Source: a virus. From it: a stretch of 64,000 bases of DNA. Position numbers and translations under genes: made by a program. Under the pieces are notes generated by a model, which had not been told where the DNA came from, did not search any database, and was given only the letters and a program-made list of their open reading frames with translations. Shown piece by piece: positions 9,020-27,663 of the stretch (the stretch's first letter is position 1; every line of letters starts with the position of its first letter). The stretch covers positions 2,269 through 66,268 of IMG/VR virus record IMGVR_UViG_3300027730_001702; one strand, written 5' to 3'.

Positions 9020-11815
9020 TTAGTTTATCAAAGCCTTTAAACTTCCAGTTTCTTGAACTAAATTATATATTAAATTAATTTTTTCTTTATTTTCATCACT
9101 TGTAAGAATATTTATTGATCCGCTAATGATTGGAGATGTGTAATATTTAAATTTATTTTGAAAATTATTTAAAGTATTAATTTTATTGATTTTATTTCCT
9201 GCGTAAGCTGAATATTTATCTCCATAATATAGATTATTTGGAATGTGACTAGCAGAAATTGTATAAATTCTCACAGTTGGTTTTGTATAGCCAGTTATAG
9301 GAAATAGCACGAGTAAATTTCCTGAAGTATAAGATCCACTTTGCCTTAATTCTCCGCTGGATTCTGTATATGATATTGCCTGTCCAACATATTCGTTTAA
9401 TCCTGAGCCATATATACTATTGCCTGTATAAAAATAAAATCCAGTATATTCTGTTGATACTAATAATTTATAATCTATATTATTTTCAAGATATAGTTGC
9501 GGATACTTTTCATTTGAAAAATTATAATAAAATTTTGCTCCAGATCTTTGTGCGCTAATCGTACTTGATGAAACAACTTGATTTCCTATAATTGGATTTA
9601 GAATTTCTTGAATTAAATTTTCTCCAGTAACAAAAAGTTTACCAGAAACTGGATTTTCAGAAGCAGAGAAATATTCAATCTTTGGCGTTGGATGATTTGG
9701 TATATAAAATTGAAGAAGTCTATAATTACCACTTATTTTATTAAAATTTGGAGTTGTGATTTTCAATTCAGAAATATCTCCTTTAACTGCTAGTGGTCTA
9801 ATTTCAGTTAAATTTGTTTGTAATAAGTTATATGTATAGCCATTCTTTAAGATTAGTTCGCTTAAATTTTTCTCAAGGTTAGCTACTGTATCATAAAATT
9901 TATAACCAGTATAAGTGGCTCCACTTATAAAATTAACTGATACATAATGTTGTTTTGCGTCTGCTGAATTAAAAATTGGTAAAACGTCCGTATTTAATTT
10001 AAATAATAAATCTAATTGAACTGCTCCAGTAAATGGGTTAAATGTATTTTTTGTAGAAATAACTGAATCATTTTGTCCAGAGAAAAGCCCAGAAAAACCT
10101 TGGTTATATTTAAAATATTGTCTGTCGCTGTTTAAATAGTAGAGTCCATCTCCGCTTGATGATATTTTTATATTTGTTTGTGCTTGGTATGTGGGATGAC
10201 TATATATTCCAGATTGAAGTTTTAATTTTAAATTAGATCTTTCGGCTTCTATGTTTTTTCCAGTAGCATATAATGTTAATCCAAATATTTTTGAATCTAT
10301 TGGACTGTTATTTATTAATATTTTTCCATTAATATCATAATTAATATTTGATCCAGTTTTTTGCATTGGTAAAAAGTTATTACCTTTTTTAGCAAAATAA
10401 AAATAATCATCTGCTAATAGTCTATTATTGTTAGATATAATACTAAGGGTTGAGTTTATGTATTTTTTTGAGGCCAAGAAATTTAATTTACCATTGATAA
10501 GCATTGTTCCAGTTACTTCGTTTAATATTAAAGCTCCTGTATTTGTATATAATTTTGTACCATTTGGTAAAGTAGTGAATGTATTTCTTCCAGATGTTAA
10601 GTAATTATTTTTATAATGAACTGTTATACTAGAGTTTTTTCCAACAGTATAATATTTAACTAATTGCCCAGATAAATTTGTATTATCTGGATAATAAAAA
10701 CTTGTTTCTTTATAACCTTGATCTACAATATCAATTAAAGAATTTTGAGAACTGAGATAAAAATTCTTTGGAATATCGCCAGTATTGAATATTGCAAAAT
10801 CATATATCTCTTCGTCATTTAATGTACCAGACTGATTAAGATTAAAATTATTATTATATAATTTATATAATCCTGTATTTTTAGGTTGAAAATATGGGCC
10901 ATAACCTAGTGATAATACTTTTGGCGAGTTTCCTGTTGGTTTCCAATATACAGAGCCAGAAAAAGCAAAAATTCTATATTTTACAAGATCATTTTTATTT
11001 GTTGCATAAGGATTATGAAATTGTGAATTTTTTTGTCCAATAATATTTGTATAAACAAAAGTACACTTATTTTGAATGCACCAATCAATGTTTGGTATAT
11101 TGTCTTGCAAATATACTTTATTATAAGTTATTGCTCTTCCAGTTTGTGTACCAGATTCTGCGCCCTGAACATAATAATCTGCTCTTTCTTGTGAAAAACC
11201 TAATTTTTGTAAATCTTTTCTTGTATAAAAATTTCTACCTACAGAACCTATTTGATATCCACTATGATCTATAAGTTCATATACGTTTTTATATGGGGAG
11301 ATAAATGGCTTAGTAATCGGATCGTTCAATGAACAGTAGCCACATATTCTAAATTTTTCTCCAGAAGATAAACCGTCAGGATATTCGTCAGGTTTACCAT
11401 ATGGAATTCCGCGGCTATCTTCAAAATTTGCTGTTAAAACTCTATCTAAGCAGTAGCCTTGTTCATTTTGTGTTGAATATGGCAGTTCACCAGTTGGAAA
11501 AAAAGTTTTTGAACCAAATTTTATTCTTATTCCTGTGTTCCTGTAGTTTTGCATCCATCCAGATTCATACCACAATGAATTATATTTTTCTTTTCTTAAG
11601 CTAACAAGTTTATTCAAATAATTTTGATTTGTTCTTTTTGAAATGGATTCTCCTAGATTAATTGGAGATAATTCGACTAAATTTTTAAAATTACTATCTA
11701 AAAATCTGGGATCGGTAAATTTAGCGTATAAATTGTTATTTGCCGCAGCAGAATCCAAATCTATTGCTTTGATTGTTTGGTTGAAACCTTTTCTATAACC
11801 AGTAATTTTGTTCAT
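9020..11815 (-). CDS. large putative virion structural protein (SG/TG-rich)
   Basis: 931 aa, frequent SG/TG dipeptides, GTGTAA motif upstream. Confidence 0.6.
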   Translation of the reverse strand: MNKITGYRKGFNQTIKAIDLDSAAANNNLYAKFTDPRFLDSNFKNLVELSPINLGESISKRTNQNYLNKLVSLRKEKYNSLWYESGWMQNYRNTGIRIKFGSKTFFPTGELPYSTQNEQGYCLDRVLTANFEDSRGIPYGKPDEYPDGLSSGEKFRICGYCSLNDPITKPFISPYKNVYELIDHSGYQIGSVGRNFYTRKDLQKLGFSQERADYYVQGAESGTQTGRAITYNKVYLQDNIPNIDWCIQNKCTFVYTNIIGQKNSQFHNPYATNKNDLVKYRIFAFSGSVYWKPTGNSPKVLSLGYGPYFQPKNTGLYKLYNNNFNLNQSGTLNDEEIYDFAIFNTGDIPKNFYLSSQNSLIDIVDQGYKETSFYYPDNTNLSGQLVKYYTVGKNSSITVHYKNNYLTSGRNTFTTLPNGTKLYTNTGALILNEVTGTMLINGKLNFLASKKYINSTLSIISNNNRLLADDYFYFAKKGNNFLPMQKTGSNINYDINGKILINNSPIDSKIFGLTLYATGKNIEAERSNLKLKLQSGIYSHPTYQAQTNIKISSSGDGLYYLNSDRQYFKYNQGFSGLFSGQNDSVISTKNTFNPFTGAVQLDLLFKLNTDVLPIFNSADAKQHYVSVNFISGATYTGYKFYDTVANLEKNLSELILKNGYTYNLLQTNLTEIRPLAVKGDISELKITTPNFNKISGNYRLLQFYIPNHPTPKIEYFSASENPVSGKLFVTGENLIQEILNPIIGNQVVSSSTISAQRSGAKFYYNFSNEKYPQLYLENNIDYKLLVSTEYTGFYFYTGNSIYGSGLNEYVGQAISYTESSGELRQSGSYTSGNLLVLFPITGYTKPTVRIYTISASHIPNNLYYGDKYSAYAGNKINKINTLNNFQNKFKYYTSPIISGSINILTSDENKEKINLIYNLVQETGSLKALIN

Positions 11816-11844
11816 ATAACTATTTCGAATTACACTTAAAAATA

Positions 11845-11877
11845 AAAAATGCGAGAATTAATAACTCTCGCATTTTT
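11845..11877. terminator. intrinsic terminator (bidirectional), ends the minus-strand ribozyme transcript
   Basis: AAAAATGCGAGA-ATTAATAAC-TCTCGCATTTTT perfect inverted repeat with T tracts on both strands. Confidence 0.8.
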
Positions 11878-11880
11878 ATA

Positions 11881-12272
11881 TTCTTTTTTATTAGTTTGGC
11901 CCCGTTTTTGTCTGGTCCTTCTGTTGCTCTTTTGTATCTTTGTAGACGCATATACTTCATCAAAGAAAAAGCCTTATTACCAGATTGATCTTTCGCTTCT
12001 GTACAAATGATCTAAACCTTCTCATTTTAAGTTATTTTCTCAAAATTTATATTGAGAAACTCGATATTGCTATCGAGATCGGACTATATCTTGCTTACTA
12101 ACTTTCGTTAGTAAGACTGGGCGCTCGTGTCTCTGTTATTGTTGCGGTAACTCAAGAGTTAGTCTCTACACCTTCATGCTTCGTTTTTACCGCGAAGCAA
12201 GCTTGGCTCGGTATGATCCACTTGGGACTTCCACCGAATTCACCCAGTATGGCCAGTTTTATTTTTAAAGAA
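11881..12272 (-). ncRNA. group I ribozyme-like RNA (IA-like core), free-standing, possibly circularly permuted
   Basis: P3 CTGGGTG/CGCCCAG; P4 TTCGGT/ACCGAG; J6/7-P7 GTGTAGAGACTA; P8 CTTACTAAC-GAAA-GTTAGTAAG; J8/7-P7 AAGATATAGTC; P9 CTCGATA-GCAA-TATCGAG; no interrupted gene visible. Confidence 0.85.
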
Positions 12273-12282
12273 CTAAAACTAG

Positions 12283-12288
12283 TTACAC
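12283..12288 (-). promoter_or_regulatory. GTGTAA phage promoter motif ahead of the group I-like RNA
   Basis: GTGTAACTAGTTTTAGTTCTTT closely resembles GTGTAAGCTAGGTTAGTTCTTT upstream of the tmRNA. Confidence 0.6.
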
Positions 12289-12308: not shown

Positions 12309-13304
12309 TTATATATTAGCTGTATCGCCAGAAAATATTATTTCACAATATTTTTTTAATTTTTTTGAAATAAACTCTTTCATGTCTTTGAAGTCGTCAA
12401 ATTTTATAAAATTTGTGTTTTCTTTCTTATTATCAAACTTAATTTTAAATATTTTTAATTTCTCTAGAATATCACATTTATTAATAATTAGCCTTGTCAC
12501 TCCAGATTTTTTAATTGCGTATTCTAATTTAGTTAAATCTAACCAGTTGGCTATCCTTTTTCTTCCTGTGGTTGTGCCATATTCTTTCCCCACTTCTATA
12601 ACTTGATTAAGTTCATTATCTAGTAGTAATGATTCTGGAAATAATGGATCTACTCCGCTTTTAGTATCATATATTTTAGCAACACCAATAATGTCTCTTA
12701 TCTTTTTAGGACTAAAGCCCAATGAGCAAGCAGAGTAAGGTAATGTTTCGCTGCTTGTTACATATGGATAATTTCCATAATTTAAATCTAACCAAAAACT
12801 TTGAGCGCCTTCACAAAGTATGTTTCCATTAAGCTCGCCATCCCAAATATATTTTTTATCTAAATAATATTTAGCCAGTTTTCCTGTTCTTAATGCTTTA
12901 TCTGCATAACATGGTGCAATTCCTTGTCCAGTTGTCCCTAGTTTAGGTTTTAAAAATTTAAGATCATATTCAATGTGTCTTTGAGTAATGATATGAGCTT
13001 TTGGGCTAACTTTAATTAAAGAAGTATCAAAACCTTCGTTATCTAAGTACTCTATTTCGTCAAAAAATTTATCAATATTAATGACACAATTTGGACCTAT
13101 TATGCTAGTTTTATTTTGGAAAACTCCGCAAGGAATAATATGAGTTTTATATTTTTTATCATTAATATAAACTGTATGCCCTGCGTTTGGCCCACCATTC
13201 CAACGACAAACGATATCATAATTTTTAGATATTGCATTACTTATCTTGCCTTTTCCTTCATCTCCCCAACATAAACCAAAAATAACATCAACTGCTTTTA
13301 TCAT
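12309..13304 (-). CDS. purA: adenylosuccinate synthetase (short form), copy 1
   Basis: WGDEGKG, GGPNAGHT, GTTGQGIAPCY, EGAQ, YPYVTSS, GTTTGRKR, NKCD. Confidence 0.95.
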   Translation of the reverse strand: MIKAVDVIFGLCWGDEGKGKISNAISKNYDIVCRWNGGPNAGHTVYINDKKYKTHIIPCGVFQNKTSIIGPNCVINIDKFFDEIEYLDNEGFDTSLIKVSPKAHIITQRHIEYDLKFLKPKLGTTGQGIAPCYADKALRTGKLAKYYLDKKYIWDGELNGNILCEGAQSFWLDLNYGNYPYVTSSETLPYSACSLGFSPKKIRDIIGVAKIYDTKSGVDPLFPESLLLDNELNQVIEVGKEYGTTTGRKRIANWLDLTKLEYAIKKSGVTRLIINKCDILEKLKIFKIKFDNKKENTNFIKFDDFKDMKEFISKKLKKYCEIIFSGDTANI

Positions 13305-13530
13305 CTTTAGGTTTTTCTCTTAACTCATTAACGTAATTTTCTAAATTTTCTTTTGCTTTATTGCAAAAATCCTGTCCAGAAGCACCACAGCAATTCTTAA
13401 ATTTTTTTAATGATAATGGGCACATACTATTTCTAGATATTTTTGGTAATACTCTTACGACTGGAGAAAATGGAGTTGCCCTCGCGTAAGGATTATGATT
13501 TAATGAAATTTTATTAGATTCTTGTTCCAT
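13288..13530 (-). CDS. SEC-C-like metal-binding motif protein, paralog of 25107..25358
   Basis: KISRNSMCPLSLKKFKNCCG. Confidence 0.7.
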   Translation of the reverse strand: MEQESNKISLNHNPYARATPFSPVVRVLPKISRNSMCPLSLKKFKNCCGASGQDFCNKAKENLENYVNELREKPKDDKSS

Positions 13531-13535
13531 ATTTT

Positions 13536-13922
13536 TTATCTCGCTGGTTGTGGTTTTGGTCTTAACTGATTATACATTTGATTGTATTTATTCACATCTT
13601 CAATTTTATTAGCATCCATAATAAGGAAAGCTTTTTGACCTAATCTAAAATTTTCATTTTCCTTCGCAGAAATGACTCCTTGCATTCTTGATCTTAATTT
13701 CGAATCTTGTGTTAATGATAGACTATTTTTTTGCTCTTGCAATAATTTGTTGTATCTTTTATTAGATTCTATTTGAGTCTTAACAATATGATATTCTGCT
13801 CCGCGAGTTACATCATCGTACTTCTGATAAGTCGTTTGAGCTTTAGAGCCAGAGATAGTTATAATTAAAGCTAAAATAGCTAAAATAATTGATTTAATAT
13901 TTTTATAATTTACCATGTGCAA
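13536..13922 (-). CDS. signal-peptide-bearing hypothetical protein
   Basis: Hydrophobic N-terminus ending SKA|Q. Confidence 0.6.
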   Translation of the reverse strand: MHMVNYKNIKSIILAILALIITISGSKAQTTYQKYDDVTRGAEYHIVKTQIESNKRYNKLLQEQKNSLSLTQDSKLRSRMQGVISAKENENFRLGQKAFLIMDANKIEDVNKYNQMYNQLRPKPQPAR

Positions 13923-15003
13923 ATCCCTCGTACATGCTATTAGGACTATTTTTAACTGCTGTAATTTTATCTGTCCATAATCCTCCTCGCATATCTTTCA
14001 TATTTCTAAAGCCTAAATAACTCATCGCGCTTCTTAAGCCGTTAGCAAAATCATAAACTATATCTTCTATTGATTTATCAAATAGTGGGATTAAAGTGTT
14101 ATCTCCTTCTACAAATAAATTCTTTTTTGTTCCATCATGGAGTTCGTAATCTTCTACTACATCTTTACTAGCCATTCCTCTGTACTTTGCATATCTTATT
14201 CCATTTTTTTCAATTATATCTTCTTCATCAACTATATCTGATAATCCAGCGAAAATTCTTCCACAAATAACTGCGTCACAGCCACTTGCTATAGCTTTAA
14301 CTAAATCTTTCGGATATCGAATACCTCCGTCAGCTAAAATACTCGGTCTATGTTCTGGATTTGGTTTATCTTGCTTAAATAAATCTACTTGAGAAAGTTC
14401 CCAATTTCTTACGGCTTTCCAAGCGTAATAATTTCCAGTTAAACTTGGGCAACCTATTCCTGTTTTGACTTGAGTTAAACACATTGATCCTGGACCGATT
14501 AAATGTCTAAATCCATCCGCTTTTAAATTAGCTAGTCTATAAACGCTTTCTTTTGTTAATGTATTACCAACAATAATGTCTTGAGAAAATCCAGCTGTTT
14601 TAAACCACCTAAGAAAATCTTCTACATTTTTAGCTAAACCATTTGCTGTATCAAGAAAATAAATATCAGTATAAGTACTTGTCTGTCTTATTCTTTCTTC
14701 GGCATCTTTTAATCCAATTGCGTTTATAGAAAATCCGCTTTCATCTTTAATTGTTTTAGATTTAGATCTTTGATCATCGATACTCATAAATCGATGCAGT
14801 ACTCCAGCCGCGCCAATTTTATTCATTTTGATACAAGATTTAACAGTTGATACTGTATCCATTGGAGATAATATCAATGGAATTTTTATATAGTTTTTTC
14901 TTGAAATCTTTGCTGTTGTATCTATTTCTTTTCTAGACGAAATGTCTGAAAAATTTGGTAGTAGTGATATATCGTCGTAACTTAAAGCTTCAACAAATCT
15001 CAT
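13903..15003 (-). CDS. guaB: IMP dehydrogenase / GMP reductase family (no CBS domains)
   Basis: SPMDTV, IGPGSMCLT, ADGGIR, YRGMAS, VEG, GLRSAMSYLG; GuaB versus GuaC not resolved. Confidence 0.8.
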   Translation of the reverse strand: MRFVEALSYDDISLLPNFSDISSRKEIDTTAKISRKNYIKIPLILSPMDTVSTVKSCIKMNKIGAAGVLHRFMSIDDQRSKSKTIKDESGFSINAIGLKDAEERIRQTSTYTDIYFLDTANGLAKNVEDFLRWFKTAGFSQDIIVGNTLTKESVYRLANLKADGFRHLIGPGSMCLTQVKTGIGCPSLTGNYYAWKAVRNWELSQVDLFKQDKPNPEHRPSILADGGIRYPKDLVKAIASGCDAVICGRIFAGLSDIVDEEDIIEKNGIRYAKYRGMASKDVVEDYELHDGTKKNLFVEGDNTLIPLFDKSIEDIVYDFANGLRSAMSYLGFRNMKDMRGGLWTDKITAVKNSPNSMYEGFAHGKL

Positions 15004-27634: not shown

Positions 27635-27663
27635 TGTGTAAGCTAGGTTAGTTCTTTCTTATT

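What the first reader, a model, noticed from the sequence alone, without database searches (positions are those of the whole stretch)
11845..12288. Free-standing group I ribozyme with no host gene, apparently circularly permuted
Seen (minus strand): a complete catalytic core P3-P9. P3 is 12241-12247 with 12117-12123, P7 is 12160-12164 with 12082-12086, and the conserved GTAGAGACTA and AAGATATAGTC are present. Both flanking genes (purA and the 931-aa gene) are intact. The RNA has its own GTGTAA motif (12283-12288, nearly the same context as before the tmRNA) and a terminator (11845-11877). Only ~25 nt precede P3, too little for a 5' exon plus P1 and P2. Instead the 5' end (TTCTTT...TGGCC, then a 3-nt ATA linker into P3) is complementary to the 3' end (GGCCA at 11897-11901, AAAGAA at 11881-11886). 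After P9/P9.1 comes a typical intron end, ATAACTTAAAATG (candidate omega-G at 12023), then ~120 nt of further stems (TCTGGT/ACCAGA, GCTTTTT/AAAAGAGC, CTTTG/CAAAG). Established: engineered permuted intron-exon group I constructs yield circular RNA, and naturally permuted group II introns are known. Inference: the intron is opened in L2 with P1 moved to the 3' end, so it could release a small RNA circle from ~12022-11910, or act in trans through its guide. I could not place a confident U:G 5' splice site.
Basis: partly seen in the sequence, partly recalled or inferred. Interest (0 to 1): 0.92.

Follow-up and report, generated by a model that had tools for sequence, protein, structure and literature searches.

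The report
Guide-first permuted group I ribozyme
A lake phage carries a complete self-splicing-type RNA enzyme that sits in front of a gene instead of inside one, with its cutting site moved behind it; relatives use this layout to head their genes, and a near-identical copy is visibly active in lake RNA data.

Summary
The minus strand 12342-12060 matches Rfam group I (70.6 bits, cut-off 50), and purA and the 931-aa gene are intact.

Comparison with about 80 unique related cores shows a natural "guide-first" circular permutation.
- A 5-nt guide (UGGCC, 12255-12251) lies 3 nt before P3. There is no P2 and no 5' exon.
- The guide pairs with a strand behind the core (window GGCC|A, 11901-11897).
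- In relatives this helix covaries, keeps an invariant G.U, and lies 2-36 nt before a start codon.
- The break is therefore in L1, not L2.

Lake metatranscriptome contigs from a 98%-identical copy (L192 type) join the predicted omega-G to the leader C equivalent to 12270. This closes a 248-nt ribozyme circle that is absent from all DNA held. The ribozyme is therefore active in vivo and omega-G is G12023.

The window's copy is a derived variant. It has C instead of U at the cut site (42 of 42 others have U), plus an inserted terminator and a second promoter-like motif.

This scan has noted the family before on other DNA. I found no printed description for phages or bacteria.

The parts
12283..12288 (-). 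GTGTAA promoter-like motif heading the ribozyme RNA
   Evidence: One search lists 18 sites in the window (21.9 expected, so the motif is not enriched overall). In one search, 10 of 18 are followed within 30 nt by a start codon opening at least 60 aa, against 418 of 4000 random positions. Two more sites precede the tmRNA and this RNA. A GTGTAA lies within 45 nt upstream of the guide in 17 of 42 family members. Promoter function is inferred.
12263..12274 (-). Conserved leader motif AGUUCUUUAAAA. The RNA circle junction of the expressed relative falls inside it (AGUU|CUUU, C = 12270).
   Evidence: Searches show the motif at a fixed 8 nt after GTGTAA in the leader-type members. One search gives the junction. 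Its function is unexplained.
12251..12255 (-). Internal guide sequence UGGCC (5' strand of the permuted P1). The U lies exactly 14 nt before GAATTC (start of P4), and 3 nt (AUA) link the guide to P3.
   Evidence: Fixed register in all hand-checked members. Covariation.
12036..12247 (-). Catalytic core P3-P9.1, including P4-P6, P7, an insertion between P7 and P3' that pairs with L6, P8, P9 and P9.1
   Evidence: Rfam RF00028 at 70.6 bits. In one search, P3 pairs in 100% of cells, P7 is invariant, and L6 with the P7 extension pairs in 93.8% of cells with compensatory changes. The core is 98% identical to that of L192.
12023..12023 (-). Omega-G, the last base of the ribozyme (...AUAACUUAAAAUG|)
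   Evidence: The context (A-rich stretch, then UG after P9.1) is conserved in all subfamilies. RNA contigs of the 98%-identical copy end the ribozyme at the equivalent G and join it to the leader.
11898..12022 (-). 125-nt structured 3' domain between omega-G and the cut site. This is the segment that a permuted intron-exon reaction would close into a ring.
   Evidence: RNAalifold on the window, L097, L081 and L083 predicts 24 pairs, 14 of them with compensatory changes. Length is 119-125 nt. Circularisation was not observed.
11897..11901 (-). 3' strand of the permuted P1, GGCC|A. The window has C where relatives have the splice-site U.
   Evidence: All 42 of 42 other members have U. The DNA contig of run X1 covers 11780-12138 with 0 differences, but it may come from the same sample.
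11816..11896 (-). Window-specific insertion between the cut site and the start codon. It holds an intrinsic terminator (11877-11845) and a second GTGTAA (11835-11830), 14 nt before the ATG.
   Evidence: Absent from L058/L097, L021, L025, L053 and L065 in alignment A1. Terminator scan. Second GTGTAA. L084, L085, L086 and L092 also carry a second GTGTAA.
9020..11815 (-). 931-aa gene of unknown function headed by the element
   Evidence: In the 80 purA loci, homologues occur only in the 6 loci that also carry the ribozyme, always just downstream of it. No Pfam, PHROG or Atlas match. Twelve homologues at 43-89% identity, none named beyond 'hypothetical protein'.
12309..13304 (-). purA (adenylosuccinate synthetase), intact. 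This is the upstream neighbour, not a host gene.
   Evidence: Pfam PF00709, E 2.4e-82. Full-length relatives in 80 of 80 loci, of which 73 have no ribozyme match.

Best explanation
The element belongs to a widespread family of naturally permuted, guide-first group I ribozymes of aquatic phages.

Layout:
- Transcription starts at a promoter that abuts the RNA.
- A 5-nt guide (UGNNN) follows directly, linked by 3 nt to P3, with no P1 hairpin and no P2.
- After the complete core and omega-G comes a spacer, here a conserved 125-nt fold.
- Then comes the strand that pairs with the guide to form P1. In relatives it ends in the splice-site U and lies 2-36 nt before the start codon of the next gene.

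Inferred mechanism in the family:
- A free guanosine nucleotide attacks after that U. This frees the downstream message with a very short leader.
- The 3' splice site after omega-G is also cut.
- The released ribozyme closes on itself, which is seen in RNA data.
- The spacer may be ligated into a ring, as in engineered permuted intron-exon constructs.

The window's copy is a derived, uncoupled version. The cut-site U is C, a terminator ends the RNA, and the 931-aa gene has its own promoter-like motif. Here it is a stand-alone RNA whose first step is probably impaired. Its core is intact and almost identical to an active sibling.
For: Shown:
- Group I core: 70.6 bits.
- No room for P1/P2. The guide is in a fixed register, and GTGTAA lies as little as 7 nt before it.
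- P1 covariation in subfamily B (27 sequences, windows chosen without using the guide). G.U is present in 27 of 27. U-A changes to C-G in 4 and G-C to A-U in 3. 92.1% of cells pair, against 24.6-53.0% when slid. The covariation score exceeds 500 of 500 shuffles.
- Across subfamilies, the 5-nt complement of a sequence's own guide lies in the 40 nt before the independently called ORF start in 42 of 60. With swapped guides the figure is 31 of 780.
- Other guide/substrate pairs: UGGUCC/GGACUA, UGGGC/GCCUA, UGCCC/GGGUA, UGCCUU/AAGGUA, UGACC/GGUUA, UGCCA/UGGUA, GGCCC/GGGUC.
- The cut site has U in 42 of 42, and the median cut-to-ATG distance is 11 nt.
- L093 is a canonical relative. It has the same GGCU|A...UGGCC as a local hairpin plus P2, and it sits in a tape-measure gene (E 2.2e-19).
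- Activity in vivo: RNA contigs of 3 lake metatranscriptomes cover only 12274-12026. Two of the 3 carry the junction of omega-G to C12270. One closes on itself with a 30-nt overlap, giving 248 nt. The junction is absent from 222 of 222 DNA sources held.
- The 3' domain is a conserved fold.

Inferred: attack by free guanosine at the distal P1, release of the mRNA, and the spacer ring.
Against: - No cleavage at the distal P1 and no spacer ring was observed here. The RNA evidence is assembled contigs, not reads. It comes from the L192-type copy, not the window's copy, and RNA libraries can contain DNA.
- The circle junction lies at AGUU|C in the leader. It can also be read as use of a proximal, canonical-order 5' splice site.
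- The window has C-G instead of U.G at the cut site. From recalled Tetrahymena work, this weakens the first step.
- 18 of 60 sequences missed the own-guide test. Most have an extra spacer with a second promoter-like motif, or a U.G at the flanking pair, or a wrong ORF call.
- In subfamily C the spacer is only about 15 nt, which is small for a ring.
- The promoter role of GTGTAA is inferred, and the motif is not enriched overall.
Confidence: 0.72

Rival explanations
1. Ordinary-order intron in a 5' leader. The 5' splice site would be AGUU|C (12271|12270), a few bases after the transcription start. Splicing would simply remove the ribozyme from the leader, and the distal pairing would be a structural closing helix.
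For: The RNA junction joins omega-G to exactly C12270. That is what a full-length intron circle would give. The leader after the junction (CUUUAAAAAUAAAAC-UGGCC) resembles the L1 loop of canonical L093 (GGCU|AAAAUAAAU-UGGCC).
Against: AGUU does not covary with the guide, which varies (UGGCC, UGGUCC, UGGGC). Subfamilies B and C and the L082/L094 type have no such leader, because the promoter-like motif abuts the guide. The distal helix carries the invariant G.U and the compensatory changes expected of a true P1. Circularisation at a weak site near the 5' end is also normal behaviour of released group I RNAs (recalled).
Confidence: 0.1
2. In this window the element is a decaying relic. After the 931-aa gene gained its own promoter, the ribozyme lost its cut site and is on its way out.
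For: C at the cut site, against U in 42 of 42 others. Inserted terminator and second GTGTAA. In L221 the same purA-to-big-gene junction has lost the whole core but kept the leader and 3' domain.
Against: The core is 98% identical to an expressed, active copy, with all helices intact. The 3' domain keeps its fold through compensatory changes. The strong fold has z = -5.8. A dedicated terminator suggests the RNA is made as a unit. Gene conversion from the sibling copy could, however, keep a useless core intact.
Confidence: 0.13
3. A canonical intron using the P1/P2 that the Rfam model places in the end of purA (12342-12300). It would splice purA to a downstream exon.
For: The Rfam alignment extends to 12342 with high posterior probabilities.
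Against: purA ends where 80 of 80 relatives end, and 73 of those have no ribozyme match. The modelled P1 has a non-standard pair at the splice position. No open frame continues after 12023. Relatives with other upstream neighbours keep the element.
Confidence: 0.02
4. A lariat-capping (GIR1-like) ribozyme that caps the downstream mRNA.
For: The topology is similar: a group I-derived ribozyme directly upstream of an ORF, with a helix formed by the strand just before P3 and the strand at the 3' end (recalled from the GIR1 literature; passages in PMC8637638).
Against: No match to any Rfam family other than RF00028 among the 17 matches up to E = 10 in the region. The helix carries the G.U typical of P1. 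Omega-G is used in an ordinary 3'-5' circle junction.
Confidence: 0.03

Closest known systems
   Same: Same core sequence family (GUAGAGACUA, AAGAUAUAGUC, the P7-P3' insertion pairing with L6). Same P1 sequences (GGCU|A with UGGCC). Same GAUAAC...UG context of omega-G.
   Different: In L093 the P1 is a local hairpin followed by P2, and the intron interrupts a coding frame. Here the substrate strand lies behind the core, there is no P2, and no gene is interrupted.
Engineered permuted intron-exon and 'ribozyme first, target behind' circular-RNA constructs (Tetrahymena system, PMC10415121, abstract read; PIE systems, search listings)
   Same: Order of parts: guide and ribozyme upstream, the segment to be circularised downstream, and the splice-site strand at its end.
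   Different: Those are laboratory designs made to produce rings. Here the layout is natural, heads a gene, and the only product seen is the ribozyme circle.
ND5-717 intron of mushroom-coral mitochondria (Chi et al. 2019, PMC6545197, abstract read)
   Same: A natural group I RNA processed from a permuted intron-exon precursor.
   Different: There a canonical intron holds most of a circular genome in P8 and only the transcript is permuted, so that coding exons are rejoined. Here the gene order in the DNA itself is permuted, the break is in L1, and no coding exons are joined.
Natural circularly permuted group II introns of bacteria (Roth et al. 2021, PMC8637638, passages read)
   Same: A stand-alone permuted self-splicing ribozyme that interrupts no ORF.
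   Different: A different ribozyme class and chemistry. By that paper, those RNAs never precisely abut an ORF, whereas this family does.
Lariat-capping ribozyme GIR1 and the c-di-GMP-controlled group I ribozyme of Clostridioides difficile (both recalled; GIR1 also in passages of PMC8637638)
   Same: Group I-type ribozymes placed in a 5' leader that shape the 5' end or the translation of the downstream message.
   Different: GIR1 branches and has lost P1 chemistry. The C. difficile ribozyme has the ordinary order with a riboswitch. Neither is guide-first.

Membership tests
Group I ribozyme (Rfam RF00028) | Conserved catalytic core P3-P9 scoring above the family's gathering score | tested here: met
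70.6 bits against 50, E 7.5e-18.
Group I ribozyme (Rfam RF00028) | Terminal omega-G used at the 3' splice site | tested here: met
   The context is conserved. RNA contigs of a 98%-identical copy join the equivalent G to the leader. This was shown for the sibling copy, not for the window's own RNA.
Group I ribozyme (Rfam RF00028) | P1 with a U.G wobble at the 5' splice site | tested here: inconclusive
   In the family, G.U is present in 27 of 27 and U in 42 of 42. The window itself has C-G.
Group I intron in the strict sense (mobile intron inside a host gene) | Interrupts a gene and restores it by joining the flanking exons; P1 strand 5' of the guide | tested here: not met
   purA and the 931-aa gene are intact. 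The substrate strand is 3' of the core. No frame continues across the element.
Permuted intron-exon (PIE-type) arrangement | 3' splice site upstream of the 5' splice site on one transcript | tested here: met
   Omega-G at 12023 lies upstream of the P1 substrate strand at 11901-11897. The same order holds in all members placed.
Permuted intron-exon (PIE-type) arrangement | The segment between the splice sites is released as a circle | not testable with these tools
Lariat-capping ribozyme (GIR1) | Match to the GIR1 model and branching chemistry | tested here: not met
   No Rfam family other than RF00028 gave a credible match among 17 matches up to E = 10. The chemistry is not testable here.

The most novel reading that the evidence does not exclude
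The family is a ribozyme-run start-of-message device. The phage transcribes ribozyme, a folded spacer and a gene as one RNA. A guanosine nucleotide then cuts the message free a few bases before its start codon, which makes translation of short-leader late genes depend on ribozyme activity. The spacer is closed into a stable RNA ring with a function of its own.

Phages carry two such units with concertedly evolving cores. The window's unit, with a dead cut site and its own terminator, has become a stand-alone RNA gene. It either supplies the ring or ribozyme function, or acts in trans on the sibling unit, which has the same guide and a GGCU|A site.
Probability: 0.2. Interest if true: 0.92.

Novelty: new variant of a known kind. 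Interest (0 to 1): 0.8.

Why it matters
Group I ribozymes are textbook selfish introns. Here the same enzyme is rewired in nature so that it interrupts nothing and instead heads genes.

- The rewired helix shows matching base changes in relatives.
- Environmental RNA shows that a near-identical copy reacts in vivo.

If the inferred reaction is right, this would be:
- a protein-free way to make the 5' end of a bacterial-virus message;
- a natural counterpart of the constructs now used to make circular RNA;
- a case where a large ribozyme has been domesticated for gene expression.

The window adds a natural experiment: a copy with the splice-site U changed to C and uncoupled from its gene. In five searches of the paper library I found natural permutation only for group II introns and one coral mitochondrial intron. 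Subscription journals and supplementary files were not searchable.

Tried and rejected
- **Whole-window Rfam run.** The gathering-mode run and the genome search 'own' with RF00028 did not list the ribozyme. Only the restricted E-value run did.
- **GenBank phages.** blastn against this collection gave only 40-50-nt core matches in 6 records of 3 phages.
- **Protein-based locus searches.** The search for related loci with the 931-aa protein alone and with P0003 found nothing. With alignment A3 it found 5 loci, one of them new.
- **Function of the downstream proteins.** Pfam, PHROGs and the protein atlas gave nothing for the 931-aa protein or for 9 other downstream proteins.
- **First automatic placement of the guide partner.** It was too noisy and I replaced it with a fixed register.
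- **MAFFT across subfamilies.** It could not align the 3' strands across all subfamilies or within subfamily A. The column-based count therefore covers subfamily B only. I used 27 of the 28 sequences picked. I left out L124 because its tail is of the long type.
- **tRNA check.** ARAGORN on 20 loci without a guide-type 5' end called no intron-bearing tRNA.
- **Close relatives of the window's 3' domain.** The pattern search found only L097, so I could not see whether close relatives share the C and the terminator.
- **RNA cover of 11780-12025.** RNA contigs did not cover this stretch. I draw nothing from that.
- **Subgroup.** I did not assign a group I subgroup (IA or IC3).
- **Supplementary files.** These were closed and may hold relevant catalogues of introns.

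Full report
**What is there**

On the minus strand between purA (12309-13304) and a 931-aa ORF (9020-11815) lies a 456-nt non-coding stretch.
- Rfam's group I model matches 12342-12060 at 70.6 bits (gathering score 50, E 7.5e-18) when the region is searched alone. The whole-window gathering run missed it.
P3 is 12247-12241 with 12123-12117. P7 is 12164-12160 with 12086-12082.
- A strong intrinsic terminator sits at 11877-11845.
- The RNA folds far better than shuffles (z = -5.8).
- purA is a short-type adenylosuccinate synthetase (Pfam E 2.4e-82). It is conserved to its last residues in 80 of 80 related viral loci, so it is not split.
- The record is a 66-kb fragment (about 43% complete) of a large tailed phage with ribonucleotide reductase, DnaB-type helicase, DNA polymerase and a UvsX-like recombinase. 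DNA runs that hold the stretch are lake and freshwater metagenomes.

**The element travels with the downstream gene, not with purA**

- Of the 80 purA loci, 7 have an nhmmer match to the element: 4 directly after purA and 3 elsewhere.
- The 931-aa protein has a tblastn match in 6 of the 80 loci. All 6 are among those 7, and the match always begins about 140-150 nt after the core. In the seventh locus the core is followed by a different large ORF.
- In the alignment of these regions, the relatives have no terminator between the RNA and the ATG. The window alone has an extra stretch of about 70 nt holding the terminator and a second GTGTAA.

**A large family with the P1 strands in swapped order**

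From 138 pattern matches I dropped 27 without the P4 motif, 4 without P7', 3 cut at the 5' end and 24 duplicates. That left 80 unique cores.

Guide strand:
- In the family a 5-nt guide sits in a fixed register, with its U 14 nt before GAATTC and 3 nt linking it to P3.
- A promoter-like motif lies close upstream. GTGTAA occurs within 45 nt in 17 of 42 members and is as close as 7 nt. In subfamily B, 19 of 22 have a TAnnnT hexamer in the 22 nt before the guide.
- This leaves no room for a 5' exon, P1 hairpin or P2.

Partner strand:
- The partner of the guide lies behind the core and ends in U followed by A.
- Examples: UGGCC/GGCUA, UGGUCC/GGACUA, UGGGC/GCCUA, UGCCC/GGGUA, UGCCUU/AAGGUA, UGACC/GGUUA, UGCCA/UGGUA, CGGCC/GGCUG and GGCCC/GGGUC.

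Formal count on subfamily B (27 sequences, windows chosen without reference to the guide):
- G.U is present in 27 of 27.
- Two positions show compensatory changes: U-A to C-G in 4, and G-C to A-U in 3.
- 92.1% of cells pair, against 24.6-53.0% in the slid controls.
- The covariation score is above all 500 shuffles.

Register-free test across subfamilies:
- The complement of a sequence's own guide lies within 40 nt before the independently called ORF start in 42 of 60.
- With swapped guides the figure is 31 of 780.
- The 18 misses are mostly members with an extra spacer and a second promoter-like motif (the window among them), a U.G at the flanking pair, or a wrong ORF call.

In the 42 hits the base at the cut site is always U. 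The cut lies 2-36 nt (median 11) before the ATG.

An invariant G.U flanked by freely covarying Watson-Crick pairs is the signature of a group I P1. The family is therefore circularly permuted with the break in L1.

L093 shows the ancestral order. It has the same GGCU|A...UGGCC as a local hairpin, then P2 and P3, inside a tape-measure gene (PHROG E 2.2e-19).

**Omega-G, the spacer and the L6 pseudoknot**

- After P9 and P9.1, all subfamilies have an A-rich stretch ending in UG.
- The segment from there to the cut site varies: about 15 nt in subfamily C, about 65 nt in B, 119-125 nt in the window's group, and up to about 300 nt elsewhere.
- In the window's group this segment is a conserved fold, with 24 predicted pairs of which 14 have compensatory changes in 4 sequences.

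**RNA evidence**

- Three lake metatranscriptomes each contain a contig that matches only 12274-12026, with 4 differences and 1 inserted base. That is the difference between the window and locus L192, whose leader the contigs also carry.
- In run X22 the contig runs 12270 to 12026, adds UG (RNA sense), and continues at 12270 with a 30-nt overlap. This is the form a 248-nt circle takes in a k-mer assembly.
- Run X19 shows the same junction, followed by adapter sequence.
- Run X20 shows the unprocessed continuation.
- L192 predicts exactly 248 nt between the leader C and omega-G. The junction is absent from all 222 DNA sources held, and no such joint appears in DNA run X1.
- Hence, in a copy whose core is 98% identical to the window's, the 3' splice site after the predicted omega-G is cut in vivo and the ribozyme circularises.
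- Caveats: these are contigs, not reads. RNA libraries can hold DNA. The window's own copy was not seen as RNA. The spacer ring and the cut at the distal P1 were not observed.

**How it most likely works**

Shown:
- core, guide, distal P1 and omega-G;
- proximity of the cut site to start codons;
- in vivo reactivity at omega-G.

Inferred:
- a free guanosine nucleotide attacks after the distal U, which releases the message with a short leader;
- the U then attacks the 3' splice site, which closes the spacer into a ring as in engineered permuted constructs;
- the released ribozyme circularises at AGUU|C.

A rival reading takes AGUU|C as a proximal 5' splice site of an ordinary-order leader intron. 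AGUU does not covary with the guide, and many members lack that leader, so I rate this reading low.

**The window's copy**

- It alone has C at the cut site (GGCC|A).
- Its RNA is ended by a terminator, and the 931-aa gene has its own GTGTAA 14 nt before the ATG.
- Cores cluster by phage and spacers by gene type. The window core is 98% identical to L192 but 92% to L097, and two copies on one contig are 93% identical. Two contigs carry two copies each.
- I infer two units per genome with concerted evolution. L192 is probably the sibling unit of this phage lineage.
- L221 shows the same purA-to-gene junction with leader, guide and spacer but no core, so loss does happen.

**Novelty**

This scan has noted the family before in other genomes. 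Those notes are leads, not evidence.

In the paper library I found natural permutation only for group II introns (PMC8637638, passages read) and one coral mitochondrial group I intron (PMC6545197, abstract read). I also found engineered analogues (PMC10415121, abstract read).

I file it as a new variant of a known kind.

Noticed in passing
window 27636-27663 (+): The GTGTAA before the tmRNA gene is followed 7 nt later by TAGTTCTTT. This is the same motif, at the same spacing, as in the ribozyme leader (AGTTCTTTAAAA). In other family members the motif sits inside the P5 loop instead.
   Followed up: partly
L221:1290-1505: The same purA-to-big-gene junction has GTGTAA, AGTTCTTT, the guide TGGCC, a ...CATAAATG motif and a roughly 110-nt 3' domain, but no catalytic core. 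This is a natural core deletion.
   Followed up: partly
L091 and L097 (one contig); L055 and L099 (one contig); L192: Phages of this group carry two ribozyme units heading different large genes (the MNKxxGxRK type and the MKRFGITGNIS type). Cores are more alike within a phage lineage than between phages, while the 3' domains follow the gene type. This suggests gene conversion between the copies.
   Followed up: partly
L107, L113, L122, L139, L144 and about 20 more loci: Subfamily B units, with a sigma-70-like -10 hexamer directly before the guide, head small lysine-rich proteins of about 126 aa (MPRKK...SQxHGKEE...LDQIWGD). These have no Pfam or PHROG match.
   Followed up: partly
L093:2069-2677 (-): A canonical relative lies inside a tape-measure gene. 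It has two GAUAAC...UG motifs. The frame reopens only after the second, about 300 nt further on, so this intron carries a long 3' extension.
   Followed up: partly
window 12309-15003 (-): The phage encodes purA next to an IMP dehydrogenase/GMP reductase-family gene (13903-15003; Pfam PF00478, E 1e-59). This is a small purine-interconversion block.
   Followed up: no
window, whole: Rfam's default filters on the 64-kb window dropped a 70.6-bit group I match that the restricted search found. AT-rich phage windows may hide more such hits.
   Followed up: no
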